From Octopus vulgaris (Eukaryota), in the NCBI GenBank assembly GCA_951406725.2, contig OX597837.1, positions 46,624,001 to 46,688,000 on the forward strand: a stretch of DNA of 64,000 nucleotides, written 5' to 3'. Shown in pieces: positions 3,001 to 64,000 of this stretch (its first letter is position 1; each line of letters begins with the position of its first letter). Position numbers: made by a program.

Positions 3001-6000
3001 AAAAAATGATTATTCAAATTGTTACCAAACATAATTTTATGTTTTGTTTTTTTCTTCGCTGTAGATTTTGCTATTCTCTATCTTCCCCTCTCTCTCTCCC
3101 TCTCTCTCTCTCTGATTTTGCATACACACACACACACACACACACACGTGCATGTATGCGTGCGCCCCCACACACAGCAGGGAAAACAGATGTTAAATGA
3201 CAGCAACAACAGACACACATACATTGTCTGACAACGGCTGAGTTGCTCAAAACTTCAAAATCACTTCCAACATTATTTCTTACATAAGAACTAAGTCTGT
3301 ACTCTGCAAAAGTACAGAGTAACCCATCAGCTGGCAGACTCATTAGCACACCAGGTGAAATGCTTAGCAGTATTTCTTCTGCCACTACATTCTGGGTTCA
3401 AATTCCGCCAAGGTCAGCTTTGCCTTTCATCCTATCAGGGTCGATTAAATAAATGCCAGTTATGAGTGAGGTTATGCAGTTATGAGCTTGTTCCTTATAG
3501 GTAGGAGAGAGGTACCTTCCTGAGGTGCCCTTGGCAGTCAGGATGATCCAGGATCATTGGGGTTCCTTGGTTTCCCTTAGGTGATACTCTTCCACTTTGT
3601 TGCTGACTTTTGACATCAAATTTGTTGTTAATTGTTATTGTTTAATTTTCCATTGTTCTTTGTATTCTCCCAAATGTTTTTTCTTTTTAAAGTTTTTGCA
3701 GCCAATAAAAAATTATTATTGTCATTGTTATAATTATTGGTTTCAGATTTTGGCCAAAGACTGGCAATTGTGTGGGAGAGGGTACAAGTTGATTACATCA
3801 ACACCAATGCTCAACTGGTACTTATTTTATCAACCCCAGGAGGATGAAAGGCAAAGTCAACTCCAGTAGCATTTGAACTCAGAAAATAAAGTCAGAAGAA
3901 ATGCTGCCAAGCAATTTTCCCAGCACGGTAATAGTTCTGCCAGCTTGCTGTCCTTACCATTGCCAGAATTATTAAGAGTAGCTTTTCATCTGTTTTTGAC
4001 ATTCTGAGTTCAAATTCTGCCAAGGCTCACTTTGCCTTTCATCCTTTCAGGGTCAATAAAATAAGTACCAGTTAAGCACTGAGGTTCAGTGCCATTAAGT
4101 TAACCCCTTCTCCAAAATTTTTGGCCTCATGCCAAAATTTGAAGCCATTATTATTATTATTATTATTATTATTATTATTATTATTATTATTATTATTTCT
4201 TCATCCTTTTTGGGTTGATAAATTAAGTACCAGTGAAACACTGGGGTTGATGTAATCAACTAGTCCCCTTTCCCAAAATGTTAGGCCTTGTGCCTTTAGT
4301 AGAAATGATTATTGTTATTATTATTATTATTATGTTGTTTTTTTCTTTTTTTCCAGGTGAGTGAAATATTATTTTACCATATTTTAAAATAAAATATGAT
4401 CTAAGTGAGGAGGGTCTTTCTTACATCACTGAAAGATGGTACTGTAAGTATGGTTATATTTTCTTTATAAGTTCTCTGATAAATGGCATCACATCCTGTA
4501 CCAATTATTCTTTAGCAAACAACAAATGAGGAATCAGGAATGCAAGATTTGAACACTTGCAAAAACATACACAAAACAATTCTGTGGAATTAAAGAAAAT
4601 CACAAGTTATTTCTGCAACTTGTTGGTGTGCAATGTAAGCTGTATATAAACGAGTATGTGTATGTGTGCATGTATGCATACTTGTATATGTACATATTTG
4701 AATGTGTAGGGGGTAGAAATATGCATTTGTATTCAAGTATTCCATAAATAAGCAAGCATTTAAACAGGAATATATTGTCACGAGTGTCTTACCTCTGGGA
4801 TATCTTAGGTGTACGTGTGTATATACATGTGTGTGTGTGTGTGTGTGTGTTGTGTATGTGCTTGCATGTGTGTATGCATATATTTATATGTATATGCTAG
4901 TGTGTGTGTCTGTGTGTATTTTTCTTTTCTTTTGTGTTTCATTCATTAAACTGCAGCCCATGGTGATCATATCTCACCACCTCATCCCATGTCCTCCTGG
5001 GTCTACCTCTTCTACAGGTTCCCTTCACAATTAGACATTGGCACTTCTTTATGTAGCTCTCCTCATCCATACCCATCGCATGACCATACCCGCATAGTCT
5101 CTCCTATTGCACACAATATCTGATGCCTCTGTTGCACATGCACACTGACATTGCATGCAATCAACAAATAAAGTGTGTAAACATACATGAATATGTGTGT
5201 CTGTGTGTCCCCCTTCTCCACTGATACTTATTTCTTTATTGCCCACAAGGGGCTAAACATAGAGGGGACAAACAAGGACAGACAAAGGGATTAAGTCGAT
5301 TACATCGACCCCAGTGCGTAACTGGTACTTAATTTATTGACCCCGACAGGATGAAAGGCAAAGTCAACCTCGGTGGAATTTGAACTCAGAACGTAACAGC
5401 AGACGAAATACCGCTAAGCATTTTGCCCGGTGCTAACGATTCTGCCAGTTCGCTGCCTTTACTGATACTACCACCCCCACCACCCCCTTCATTGTCATTG
5501 AGCCAATGAGCAAATAATCAGTGTTGCTCTGTTTTCCCATACTAAGTGTAGGCGTGGCTGTGTGCTAAGAAGTTTGCTTTCCAGCCATATAGTTCTGGGT
5601 TCAGTCCCACTGCATGGCATCTTGGGCAGGTATCATCTACTATAGTCTCAGGCCTAACAAAGCTTTGTGAGTTGATTTGATGGATGGAAACTGAAAGAAG
5701 CCCATCATGTGTGTGTGTTCCTTACCATTGCTTGACAATCAGTGTTGGTGTATTTATGTGCCTGTAACTTTGCAGTTTGGCAAAAGAGATCAATAGAATA
5801 AGTACCAGACTTTACAAGTGCTGGAGTTGAATCATTCAACTAGACTTCTTCAAGGTGGTGCCCCAGCATGGCACCAGTCTAATGATTGAAACAAGATAAA
5901 AGAAAAGATTAGTGTGGGTAGGATATGTTTACCAGCCCTCATCCTTGCTCTCACACATTTCTATTTTGTGGCATCTCTTGTATGACACCTCATGTTTTGT

Positions 6001-63000: not shown

Positions 63001-64000
63001 AGTTTTTGAGAGCAGTCGTGTTCATTTTTAGTATTCTCATTTGTGAGAGGAGTCAAATTTATTTCAGATATTCTCAGTTTAAAAATCATTTCTGGCTAAT
63101 CGCTGAGAAGATATTGGTGTTGCCTTGATGGAGGTGGACGTTCTCTGAGTGCTCTTATTATTATTATTATTATCATCATTATTATCATTATTATTATTAG
63201 CATTATTATTATTATTATTATTATTATTATTAGCATTATTTTATTATTATTATTATTATTTGTTGTTTGATTAAACCATTCCTAATTCTTGACTGGTATT
63301 TAATTTTATCAACCACTGGAGTTGACAAAACTGTTCTGCAATTTCAGATAAAGTCCTGATCAAAATAAGCCTATGACCAAAGAGGCATCACTCTCTCTCT
63401 CTCTCTCTCTCTTTCTCTCTCTCTCTCTCTCTCTCTCTCTCTCTCTCTCTCTCTCTCCCTCTCTCTCTCCTAACTTTATAAACCAACAAATGGTAACAGA
63501 GTTTCATTCCATTCTTCTCCCTAAAAAAAATTATGACTTTGTACCTAAAAAGAAAAAACACCCAGGATCTGTATATTTATCGAAAGTTTCTCTGTCATTT
63601 CAGGAAAATGGGATCCTTTCTAATCAACTCAAGAATGCACAATTCCAAATGCAGTCGTTGCCTGCAAATGCACATACAATGCAAGCTATGCTCGAAGCCA
63701 AAGTAAGTTTTGTTTGTTTACTTTTGTTTATTTATTTTGGTTTTTATATTGTTGGGGAAATGATTTTTTAATGTTTTTCTTCAAATGAATCATCATCATC
63801 ATCAACACAACTATTGTCATCAACACCACTACCACCCCCATCTGTAACATTCATCAACACCACTTCTACCATCGTCTTCATAATGCCACCATTATCATTG
63901 TTAACATCACCTCCACCTCCACTGCTACCACCATTATCACTACCATCATCATCATCATCATCATCATCCCTGTCAACATAATAACCAGAGGTACAACACT

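What the first reader, a model, noticed from the sequence alone, without database searches (positions are those of the whole stretch)
4333..63603. Recursive splicing coupled to nested long-range RNA stems that close every intron segment of a giant ELKS gene
Seen: three AG|GT ratchet points and two exons define four segments (4357-7870, 7871-40945, 40946-46342, 46730-63603). In each, unique non-repeat sequence near the donor is complementary to unique sequence near the far acceptor. The complementarity takes the form of series of collinear, antiparallel 6-21 bp helices rich in G-U pairs, with more duplexes nested inside like ladder rungs. None of these ladder stems crosses a recursive site. Established: recursive splicing (Drosophila ratchet points, vertebrate RS-exons) and RNA bridges are known separately. 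G-U enrichment on one strand points to selection on RNA pairing rather than a DNA inverted repeat. Inference: the intron is removed stepwise, each step folded into a giant hairpin that loops out transposon-filled spacers. I am not aware of a description of this in cephalopods.
Basis: partly seen in the sequence, partly recalled or inferred. Interest (0 to 1): 0.92.

Follow-up and report, generated by a model that had tools for sequence, protein, structure and literature searches.

The report
Candidate recursive splice sites, octopus ELKS
A giant intron of an octopus synapse gene holds two sites that look like fly-type recursive splice sites, while the long-range RNA ladders said to close each intron piece are what random sequence, microsatellites and transposon copies give.

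Summary
The gene and exons are real. Exon 46343-46729 is Pfam Cast and 98% identical to Octopus bimaculoides ELKS; exon 63604-63702 follows it directly; the upstream exon lies outside the window, so the intron is at least 46.3 kb.

Two of the three AG|GT sites, 4357 and 40946, are far beyond chance. Each has a 16/17 pyrimidine tract, TT at -6/-5, YAG|GTRAGT, and a second consensus donor 87 or 79 nt downstream that bounds a stop-containing cryptic exon. About 0.005-0.011 such sites are expected and 2 are seen, with none on the minus strand. They fit the Drosophila ratchet-point and RS-exon architecture. Site 7871 fails even a relaxed filter that five plus-strand and four minus-strand sites pass.

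The closing-stem ladder is not supported:
- End-to-end duplex energies match shuffled, non-cognate and minus-strand controls.
- Non-repeat sequence holds 4400 helices of 12 bp or more, against 3659-4052 in shuffles, and 59% cross a claimed boundary.
- Nested ladders are as long in shuffles.
- The one 22-bp end-proximal helix is (GT)n against (CA)n microsatellite.

Conservation and RNA-seq could not be checked.

The parts
4338..4362 (+). Candidate ratchet point 1. Pyrimidine tract (16 of 17 Y at -20..-4, TT at -6/-5), CAG at 4354-4356, then donor GTGAGT at 4357-4362.
   Evidence: One of 2 plus-strand AGGTRAGT sites with an extreme tract; 0.005-0.011 expected.
4357..4449 (+). Putative cryptic RS-exon 1, 87 nt (4357-4443), with stop codons in phase 0. 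It is bounded by a second consensus donor GTAAGT at 4444-4449.
   Evidence: Only 6.4% of window positions, and 22 of 217 AGGT sites, have a GTRAGT 30-150 nt downstream.
7851..7876 (+). It is weak and not distinguishable from chance.
   Evidence: Tract 11/17, donor 2 of 4 consensus positions, next GTRAGT 574 nt away. It fails a relaxed filter passed by 5 plus-strand and 4 minus-strand sites.
40913..40951 (+). Candidate ratchet point 2. TTAAC (40913-40917) puts a possible branch A at -30. Pyrimidine tract 40922-40943 (16 of 17 Y, TT at -6/-5), CAG at 40943-40945, then donor GTAAGT at 40946-40951.
   Evidence: Lies in sequence with no other copy in the window (self-BLAST mask 0.0 within +-100 nt).
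40946..41030 (+). Putative cryptic RS-exon 2, 79 nt (40946-41024), with a stop codon in phase 0. It is bounded by a second consensus donor GTGAGT at 41025-41030.
46343..46729 (+). ELKS/CAST coding exon, 387 nt, phase 0. The acceptor tract is 13/17 Y and the donor is GTAAGT at 46730.
   Evidence: Pfam Cast PF10174 positions 100-209, E 4.3e-23. 98% identity to ELKS [Octopus bimaculoides] P0001.
63604..63702 (+). Next ELKS coding exon, 99 nt, phase 0, with donor GTAAGT at 63703.
   Evidence: tblastn of P0001 residues 460-492; sequence read.
41177..41216 (+). (GT)n microsatellite, 231 nt downstream of site 40946. It is the 5' arm of the only helix over 20 bp between the two ends of a segment.
46065..46086 (+). 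(CA)n microsatellite, 258 nt upstream of acceptor 46342. It is the 3' arm of that 22-bp helix.
   Evidence: The window holds 42 (GT)n and 47 (AC)n runs of at least 5 units.

Best explanation
The window covers most of an intron of at least 46.3 kb, one coding exon, a 16.9-kb intron and a second exon of an octopus ELKS/CAST/ERC gene.

The big intron holds two sites, 4357 and 40946, built like Drosophila intronic ratchet points. Each has a very strong 3' splice site fused to a consensus 5' splice site, followed 79-87 nt later by a second donor that bounds a short, stop-containing cryptic RS-exon.

The likely mechanism, which is inferred and not shown:
1. The upstream exon is spliced to 4357, which rebuilds a donor (..CAR|GTGAGT).
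2. That donor is spliced to 40946, rebuilding ..CAR|GTAAGT.
3. That donor is spliced to the real acceptor at 46342.

The intron would then leave in pieces of over 4.3 kb, 36.6 kb and 5.4 kb.

The third site (7871) is probably not used. The 'ladders' of long-range stems are not a feature. They are the background of short helices that any A/T-rich 64-kb sequence gives, plus (GT)n/(AC)n microsatellites and inverted transposon copies.
For: Gene and exons. There is no tblastn match to the upstream exon (..LKITQAEFQ) anywhere in 1-46342 at E<=10.

Ratchet-point motif:
- 2 of 4 plus-strand AGGTRAGT words carry a tract of at least 16/17 Y, which only 9 of 3254 AGs have. Expected 0.005-0.011, observed 2; minus strand 0 of 1.
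- Both have TT at -6/-5 and stronger tracts (16/17) than the two real acceptors (13/17 and 12/17). Duff et al. report the same for fly ratchet points (10.1101/006163, whole text read).
- Both have a second GTRAGT at +87 or +79 and in-frame stops. The background is 6.4% of positions. This matches the cryptic RS-exon model in the Introduction of PMC8605326.
- The two sites share no flanking homology, so they count as independent.
- Intron size and a neuronal host gene fit the fly class: introns of 11-133 kb and segments of 2.6-63.6 kb.

Stems are chance:
- Raw 300-nt ends give -73.0, -99.1, -120.2 and -64.1 kcal/mol. The 12 non-cognate pairs range from -50.2 to -131.7. The minus strand gives -85.5, -100.2, -114.0 and -76.8. 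Against shuffles, z = +0.61, -1.93, -4.19 and +1.25.
- The one outlier, segment 3, is the microsatellite helix.
- After masking, z = -1.32, -2.34, -0.16 and -0.77 at W=300, and +1.02, -0.43, +0.35 and -1.16 at W=600.
- Nested ladders have 3, 37, 5 and 22 rungs. Eight shuffles give 1-3, 35-40, 4-6 and 19-26.
Against: For the recursive sites:
- There is no RNA evidence (junction reads, saw-tooth coverage, lariats).
- No conservation test was possible. No cephalopod genome is reachable with these tools.
- The upstream exon is outside the window, so the rebuilt donors are inferred from the protein (..EFQ).
- The tract before 4357 follows a (TTA)n run and a transposon copy, so it may be a young, unselected sequence.
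- Whether cephalopods use recursion at all is unknown.

- Among unmasked helices of at least 16 bp, the same-segment share is 56 of 122 (0.459). That is above all 8 shuffles (0.355-0.407) and the minus strand (0.344).
- 'Closing' helices within 1 kb of both ends of segment 3 number 5, against 1-3 in 8 shuffles. These five are 12-13 bp and -3.1 to -11.8 kcal/mol, and three use one purine-rich word against T-rich tracts.
- Local duplexes scoring at least 50 number 12 on the plus strand, against 3 on the minus strand and 1 and 3 in two shuffles. Eight of the 12 cross boundaries, and several belong to an unmasked short repeat family.
Confidence: 0.6

Rival explanations
1. There are three ratchet points, and each intron segment is folded into a giant hairpin by selected, nested, G-U-rich stems in unique sequence that never cross a recursive site.
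For: - The AG|GT sites are at the stated positions.
- Helices between segment ends exist.
- Segment 3 ends score z = -4.19 against shuffles in raw sequence.
- There is a slight excess of same-segment helices of at least 16 bp, 0.459 against 0.355-0.407.
Against: - The cognate ends are no better than non-cognate, random-pair or minus-strand controls. In raw 300-nt ends, 5-89% of 120 random window pairs fold as well as or better than the cognate ends.
- The segment 3 signal is (GT)n against (CA)n, not unique sequence.
- 2260 of 3823 helices cross boundaries.
- 106 of 170 inverted-repeat pairs cross.
- 8 of the 12 best local duplexes cross. An 18-bp, -28.7 kcal/mol helix (4403-4420 with 41934-41951) spans two claimed sites.
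- Ladder length equals that in shuffles.
- The wobble share is 0.357 on plus and 0.345 on minus. The plus/minus helix ratio is 1.20, below the 1.46 that composition predicts.
- Site 7871 is at chance level.
Confidence: 0.03
2. Sites 4357 and 40946 are acceptors of ordinary unannotated cassette or 'poison' exons (4357-4443 and 40946-41024). These exons are sometimes included and trigger decay. The GTRAGT at their first base is not used as a donor.
For: - Each has a strong acceptor, a consensus downstream donor at +87 or +79, and stop codons in the reading phase.
- This is the same architecture as an RS-exon, so sequence alone cannot separate the two readings.
Against: - A full GTRAGT placed exactly at the first exon base in both cases is not needed for a cassette exon. 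It is rare: 4 AGGTRAGT among 217 AGGT on the plus strand.
- The O. bimaculoides ELKS protein joins ..AEFQ directly to RQSS.., with no insert.
Confidence: 0.2
3. The two AG|GT motifs are chance or transposon-tail products, and the intron is removed in one step.
For: - The tract before 4357 continues a (TTA)n run next to a repeat copy. 47% of +-100 nt is masked by self-BLAST.
- The window was picked by a reader who was looking for such things.
Against: - Expected number 0.005-0.011 against 2 observed.
- Both also have a downstream donor, with a background of 6-10% each.
- Both are on the sense strand only.
- Site 40946 lies in single-copy sequence.
Confidence: 0.12
4. A microsatellite bridge helps only the last step. 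(GT)n at 41177-41216 pairs with (CA)n at 46065-46086 and brings donor 40946 and acceptor 46342 to within about 500 nt, in the manner of the teleost AC/GT introns. This does not exclude the best explanation.
For: A 22-bp helix with 2 G-U pairs is part of a -120.2 kcal/mol duplex. Lin et al. show that such bridges work in zebrafish (PMC4691745; abstract and sections 4-5 read).
Against: - The window has 42 (GT)n and 47 (AC)n runs, about one of either kind per 720 nt. Another (AC)n lies only about 250 nt downstream, at 41460-41475.
- The GT-then-AC arrangement occurs in 2 of 4 segments, against about 1 of 4 expected.
- The orientation is the reverse of the teleost class, which has AC after the donor and GT before the acceptor.
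- Non-cognate donor 2 against acceptor 3 scores better still, at -131.7 kcal/mol.
Confidence: 0.05

Closest known systems
Drosophila intronic ratchet points (zero-nucleotide recursive splice sites) with cryptic RS-exons. Sources: Duff et al., 10.1101/006163, whole text read; Joseph et al., PMC8605326, Introduction read. Hatton 1998 and Burnette 2005 are known to me only as cited there.
   Same: - Fused acceptor and donor (Y-tract, YAG|GTRAGT).
- Unusually strong pyrimidine tract and TT at -6/-5.
- Location deep in a very long intron of a neuronal gene.
- A short downstream cryptic exon with its own donor and stop codons.
- Segment sizes within the fly range.
   Different: - The host is a cephalopod mollusc.
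- No RNA evidence and no conservation test.
- The cryptic exons are 79-87 nt, against about 50 nt in flies.
- The relative strength of the two donors could not be scored.
Vertebrate recursive splice sites and RS-exons in long neuronal genes. Sibley et al. 2015, known here only as cited in PMC8605326.
   Same: Long neuronal gene; recursive-site acceptor followed by an RS-exon whose inclusion would introduce a premature stop.
   Different: According to PMC8605326, vertebrates show few fully suppressed intronic sites and many expressed RS-exons. The octopus sites look like the fully consensus fly type.
Teleost (AC)m-(GT)n intron-bridging structures (Lin et al. 2016, PMC4691745; abstract and sections 4-5 read).
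   Same: Complementary dinucleotide repeats lie near the two ends of segment 40946-46342 and could pair.
   Different: - The orientation is reversed: GT after the donor and AC before the acceptor.
- The repeats lie 231 and 258 nt from the splice sites, outside the 200-nt zone.
- There is no co-occurrence above chance in this window.
Conserved long-range RNA structures and 'RNA bridges' in introns. Seen only in passages and the reference list of the review PMC7404189, which cites Howe and Ares 1997, Raker et al. 2009 and Lovci et al. 2013.
   Same: The idea that intronic pairing shortens the effective distance between splice sites.
   Different: Those cases rest on conservation, covariation or experiments. 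Here the pairing potential equals that of shuffled sequence.

Membership tests
Intronic ratchet point / recursive splice site (fly type) | Juxtaposed consensus 3' and 5' splice sites (Y-tract YAG|GTRAGT) | tested here: met
   Met for 4357 and 40946 (16/17 Y, Y at -3, GTGAGT and GTAAGT). Not met for 7871 (11/17 Y, GTAAAA).
Intronic ratchet point / recursive splice site (fly type) | More prominent pyrimidine tract than ordinary acceptors, and TT at -6/-5 (99.5% of fly sites) | tested here: met
   Tracts are 16/17 at both sites, against 13/17 and 12/17 at the two real acceptors in the window. TT is present at both sites. It is also present at the real acceptors and at 7871, so TT alone does not discriminate here.
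Intronic ratchet point / recursive splice site (fly type) | Lies in a very long intron (fly range 11-133 kb) | tested here: met
   The upstream exon is absent from 1-46342 by tblastn at E<=10, so the intron is at least 46.3 kb.
Intronic ratchet point / recursive splice site (fly type) | Short cryptic RS-exon with its own downstream donor, usually frame-breaking or stop-containing | tested here: met
   GTAAGT at +87 and GTGAGT at +79, with stops in phase 0. The background is 6.4% of positions, or 22 of 217 AGGT sites.
Intronic ratchet point / recursive splice site (fly type) | Ratchet-point donor stronger than the RS-exon donor | tested here: inconclusive
   All four donors are full GTRAGT. No splice-site scoring model for cephalopods was at hand.
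Intronic ratchet point / recursive splice site (fly type) | Sequence conservation of the site in related species | not testable with these tools
Intronic ratchet point / recursive splice site (fly type) | Exon-to-site junction reads, saw-tooth read density, recursive lariats | not testable with these tools
   No RNA-seq data are reachable.
Selected long-range intron-bridging RNA structure | Complementarity between the bridged regions exceeds shuffled, non-cognate and opposite-strand controls | tested here: not met
   The one raw-sequence outlier is a microsatellite pair.
Selected long-range intron-bridging RNA structure | Strand-specific G-U usage beyond what composition gives | tested here: not met
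   Wobble share is 0.357 on plus and 0.345 on minus. The helix-count ratio is 1.20 against 1.46 expected from composition. Transitions in inverted repeats are 2636 against 2400.
Selected long-range intron-bridging RNA structure | Compensatory changes across species | not testable with these tools
   No orthologous introns are available.
Teleost (AC)m-(GT)n structured introns | AC repeats within 200 nt after the donor, GT repeats just before the acceptor, co-occurring above an independence model | tested here: not met
   The orientation is reversed and the distances are 231 and 258 nt. The GT-then-AC arrangement is seen in 2 of 4 segments, with about 1 of 4 expected from 42 GT and 47 AC runs.
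ELKS/CAST/ERC gene | Cast domain (PF10174) and orthology to a named ELKS | tested here: met
   E 4.3e-23, 81.9 bits against a cut-off of 29.1. 98% identity and 100% coverage to ELKS [Octopus bimaculoides].

The most novel reading that the evidence does not exclude
Octopus removes the ELKS intron of at least 46 kb stepwise through at least two fly-type ratchet points with suppressed cryptic RS-exons. That would place zero-nucleotide recursive splicing in Lophotrochozoa. It would also suggest that recursion is either an old bilaterian answer to giant introns or one that repeat-bloated cephalopod genomes found again. A genome-wide sense-versus-antisense count of the motif in octopus long introns would then reveal a whole class.
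Probability: 0.45. Interest if true: 0.6.

Novelty: new member of a known kind. Interest (0 to 1): 0.35.

Why it matters
Cephalopod genomes are large and repeat-rich, and their neuronal genes have very long introns. How such introns are removed accurately is not described.

Two sequence-perfect ratchet-point-like sites in an octopus synaptic gene give a concrete target that can be tested cheaply with junction RT-PCR or total RNA-seq. The test would show whether recursive splicing reaches beyond insects and vertebrates.

My searches of the held library found no paper on this:
- 'recursive splicing' with 'octopus': 0 papers.
- With 'cephalopod': 1 paper, where both terms occur only in the reference list.
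- With 'squid': 1 paper, judged unrelated from its title (a review of single-cell technologies).
- 'recursive splice' with 'mollusc': 0 papers.

The negative half matters too. Ladders of 6-21 bp G-U-tolerant helices can be drawn in any long A/T-rich intron, and they should not be read as structure without shuffled and cross-boundary controls.

Tried and rejected
- RNAduplex-type folding of long raw arms gives -99, -209 and -324 kcal/mol for 300, 600 and 1000 nt. The energy simply grows with length, so absolute energies were dropped in favour of controls.
- A masked duplex run at four widths with 60 shuffles timed out with no output. It was rerun at two widths with 30 shuffles. Widths of 1000 and 1500 nt were therefore covered only by helix counts.
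- A first local-alignment scoring (mismatch -3, gap -4) gave 362,024 cells at or above the threshold in a 12-kb trial, too many to use. Stricter scores were used instead.
- Homology between the two ratchet-point flanks, which would make them one event, was looked for and not found.
- Known RNA families or tRNA-derived elements as a cause of the structure: 0 Rfam hits at gathering score and 0 tRNAs.
- The teleost AC/GT bridge was considered and rejected as a class match.
- One literature query was rejected for having too many words and was resent in shorter form.
- The repeat mask uses only copies within this window, so single-copy fragments of transposon families remain unmasked. One such short family was seen.
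- The genome-contig scan was not used because it holds no animal genomes.
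Full report
**What is in the window**

The window is 64,000 bases with no N, 38% G+C, and T>A on the plus strand.

- Frame 0 of 46343-46729 is open. It matches Pfam Cast (PF10174, profile positions 100-209 of 766, E 4.3e-23, 81.9 bits against a cut-off of 29.1).
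- A search with this exon alone against longer proteins found 5442 proteins at E<=1e-10 among 6134 candidates. The best was ELKS [Octopus bimaculoides] (P0001, 1198 aa, 98% identity, 100% of the query).
- tblastn of P0001 against the window gave three hits. Two lie over the coding exons, at window 46316-46813 and 63583-63723. The third is a weak internal one (E 7.5) within the first exon.
- In P0001 the sequence runs ..LKITQAEFQ | RQSS...KKID | ENGIL...LEAK | DSR...
- So 46343-46729 and 63604-63702 are consecutive exons, both phase 0, with GTAAGT donors at 46730 and 63703.
- The exon ending in ..AEFQ is not in 1-46342. The intron upstream of 46343 is therefore at least 46.3 kb, and the next intron is 16.9 kb.
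- The three amino-acid differences from O. bimaculoides point to a close relative of that species, not the same assembly. This is an inference.
- The exons were searched one by one.

**The AG|GT sites**

The plus strand has 217 AGGT and the minus strand 177. I asked for a tract of at least 75% pyrimidine at -20..-4, Y at -3, and at least 2 of 4 consensus donor positions after GT.
- Three plus-strand sites pass: 4357 and 40946 (both 16/17 Y and 4/4 donor) and 3581 (2/4).
- Four minus-strand sites pass, all at 2/4.

Only 4 AGGTRAGT words exist on the plus strand (4357, 8445, 17673, 40946) and 1 on the minus strand. Only 9 of 3254 plus-strand AGs have a tract of at least 16/17 with Y at -3.
- If tract and donor were independent, 0.005 such sites would be expected (0.011 if conditioned on the 4 AGGTRAGT). 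Two are observed.
- At the laxer tract threshold of 0.75 (94 of 3254 AGs), the expectation is 0.05-0.12.

Further points on the two strong sites:
- Both have TT at -6/-5. Their tracts (16/17) are stronger than those of the two real acceptors in the window (13/17 and 12/17). Duff et al. report exactly this contrast for fly ratchet points, with TT in 196 of 197.
- Before 40946, TTAAC at 40913-40917 would put a branch A at -30, which is the modal distance in flies. This is a motif reading only.
- The two sites share no flanking homology. The local alignment score is 24 over about 200 gapped columns. Site 40946 lies in sequence with no second copy in the window. The tract of 4357 follows a (TTA)n run and a repeat copy.

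A second line of evidence is independent of the first. Of the 36 GTRAGT words on the plus strand, one lies 87 nt after 4357 (GTAAGT at 4444) and one lies 79 nt after 40946 (GTGAGT at 41025).
- These bound putative exons of 87 and 79 nt that carry stop codons in the phase set by the upstream exon.
- Only 6.4% of window positions, and 22 of 217 AGGT sites, have a GTRAGT 30-150 nt downstream.
- Joseph et al. describe this architecture for fly ratchet points: a short, poorly conserved, frame-breaking RS-exon with its own donor, normally suppressed because the ratchet-point donor wins (Introduction of PMC8605326).

Site 7871 has an 11/17 tract interrupted by AAA, the donor GTAAAA, and no GTRAGT for 574 nt. 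It fails a relaxed filter (tract of at least 0.70) that five plus-strand and four minus-strand sites pass. I treat it as chance.

**The long-range stems**

More than half of the window is repeat. Self-BLAST gave 273 inverted and 308 direct pairs. Within-window copies, tandem repeats and low complexity together mask 53.6%. That leaves 138 islands of at least 60 nt, totalling 28,002 nt.

*1. Ends of each claimed segment, raw sequence, 300 nt against 300 nt, RNAduplex energy*

| Set | Energies (kcal/mol) |
|---|---|
| Cognate ends, segments 1-4 | -73.0, -99.1, -120.2, -64.1 |
| 12 non-cognate combinations | -50.2 to -131.7, mean -80.2 |
| Same regions on the minus strand | -85.5, -100.2, -114.0, -76.8 (better in 3 of 4) |
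| 120 random window pairs | mean -88.2, sd 20.7 |

- The fraction of random pairs at or below the cognate value is 0.82, 0.28, 0.05 and 0.89.
- Against 40 dinucleotide shuffles each, z = +0.61, -1.93, -4.19 and +1.25.
- The one outlier, segment 3, comes from a 22-bp helix between (GT)n at 41195-41216 and (CA)n at 46065-46086. The other 37 helices of that duplex are 1-8 bp.
The window holds 42 (GT)n and 47 (AC)n runs of at least 5 units.

*2. The same test on masked sequence, 30 shuffles each*
- z = -1.32, -2.34, -0.16 and -0.77 at 300 nt.
- z = +1.02, -0.43, +0.35 and -1.16 at 600 nt.
- Non-cognate and minus-strand values overlap the cognate ones.

*3. How common are such helices?*
- Between the first and last 1 kb of each segment there are 2323, 2170, 2773 and 2564 helices of at least 6 bp (Watson-Crick plus G-U). 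Shuffle means are 1883-2500.
- Segments 2 and 4 match shuffles at every length.
- Segments 1 and 3 have extra long helices (51 and 111 of at least 12 bp, against 6 and 11). The excess disappears after masking, leaving 1 and 5.
- Across all unmasked sequence there are 4400 perfect helices of at least 12 bp on the plus strand and 3668 on the minus strand. Eight shuffles give 3659-4052. Helices of 20-23 bp occur in shuffles too.

*4. Crossing of boundaries*
- Of 3823 helices of at least 12 bp with both arms inside segments, 1563 (0.409) stay within one segment and 2260 cross a boundary. Shuffles give 0.403-0.437.
- For helices of at least 16 bp the same-segment share is 56 of 122 (0.459). That is above all eight shuffles (0.355-0.407) and the minus strand (0.344).
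- For helices of at least 18 bp it is 14 of 23, within the shuffle range of 0.235-0.625.
- So there is a small bias towards shorter range among longer helices, as local hairpins and residual repeats would give, but more than half still cross.
- Of 170 inverted-repeat pairs with both arms in segments, 106 cross.
- In a gapped, G-U-tolerant local alignment of the masked window against itself, 12 plus-strand duplexes score at least 50. The minus strand gives 3 and two shuffles give 1 and 3.
- Eight of those 12 cross a boundary. The four that do not have spans of 52, 262, 5,349 and 11,114 nt. None joins the two ends of a segment.
- Several belong to a short unmasked repeat family.
- One 18-bp helix of -28.7 kcal/mol joins 4403-4420 to 41934-41951, across two claimed sites.

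*5. Ladders*

The longest nested chain of helices of at least 12 bp:

| Segment | Plus strand (rungs) | Eight shuffles (rungs) |
|---|---|---|
| 1 | 3 | 1-3 |
| 2 | 37 | 35-40 |
| 3 | 5 | 4-6 |
| 4 | 22 | 19-26 |
| Merged 4357-40945 | 39 | 38-42 |

*6. G-U bias*
- The wobble share of pairs in these helices is 0.357 on the plus strand and 0.345 on the minus strand.
- The plus/minus ratio of helix counts is 1.20, below the 1.46 predicted from the T>A composition alone.
- In inverted repeats, transitions that give G-U on the plus strand number 2636, against 2400 for the minus strand.
- None of this calls for selection on RNA pairing.

*7. 'Closing' helices*
- Within 1 kb of both ends of a segment they number 1, 3, 5 and 8. 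Shuffles give 0-3, 0-4, 1-3 and 4-9.
- Segment 3 is marginally high. Its five helices are 12-13 bp and -3.1 to -11.8 kcal/mol, and three use the same purine-rich word against T-rich tracts.

**Microsatellite bridge**

The (GT)n-(CA)n pair of segment 3 recalls the teleost intron-bridging repeats of Lin et al. There, however, AC follows the donor and GT precedes the acceptor, within about 200 nt.
- Here the order is reversed and the distances are 231 and 258 nt.
- A closer (AC)n lies at 41460-41475.
- The GT-then-AC arrangement occurs in 2 of 4 segments, where about 1 of 4 is expected from the repeat density.
- A role cannot be excluded, but nothing singles this pair out.

**Conclusion**

The stem ladder, the no-crossing rule and the G-U argument do not survive controls. 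They reflect how many short G-U-tolerant helices any long A/T-rich sequence offers, plus microsatellites and inverted transposon copies.

The most likely mechanism is fly-type recursive splicing at 4357 and 40946 with suppressed cryptic RS-exons. Every step of that mechanism beyond the motifs is inferred.

**Prior description**

In the held library:
- 'recursive splicing' with 'octopus' found 0 papers.
- With 'cephalopod' it found 1 paper, where both terms occur only in the reference list.
- With 'squid' it found 1 paper, judged unrelated from its title (a review of single-cell technologies; listing only).
- 'recursive splice' with 'mollusc' found 0 papers.
- Subscription-journal papers are not covered by these searches.

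**What stayed unchecked**
- Conservation in other cephalopod genomes.
- Any RNA evidence.
- A quantitative splice-site score.
- Supplementary tables of the papers read.

Noticed in passing
window 37004-37284: A 281-nt near-perfect palindrome, 94% self-complementary. As RNA it folds into a hairpin of about 135 bp, with MFE -228.5 kcal/mol and z -30.8 against 100 shuffles. It is probably a foldback or MITE-like element. As a long intronic dsRNA it would be a natural ADAR or small-RNA substrate in a cephalopod neuron.
   Followed up: partly
window 46778-46832 with 47094-47148: An imperfect local stem lies just downstream of the exon donor at 46730, with a loop of about 260 nt. It was the second-best plus-strand duplex in the masked scan (score 66). 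The 421-nt region folds with z -4.9.
   Followed up: partly
window 45609-45740: A local hairpin about 600 nt upstream of acceptor 46342, with MFE -43.9 kcal/mol and z -3.6.
   Followed up: partly
window 166-194, 7071-7126, 17117-17136, 26067-26087, 30914-30936, 33742-33783, 56061-56105: A short repeat family escaped the within-window mask and occurs in both orientations. It supplies several of the strongest 'unique-sequence' duplexes, including the 23-bp helix 166-188 with 30914-30936.
   Followed up: no
whole window: Dinucleotide microsatellites are very dense: 42 (GT)n, 47 (AC)n and 45 (TA)n runs of at least 5 units in 64 kb. At least 48.6% of the sequence has another copy within the window. 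There were no Rfam family hits at gathering score and no tRNA genes.
   Followed up: partly
window 42337-42482 with 61790-61936: A 95% identical inverted repeat pair of 147 nt spans the coding exon 46343-46729. Its extension is the top minus-strand duplex and the third-best plus-strand duplex. Pairing of these arms would loop out the exon instead of closing an intron segment.
   Followed up: no
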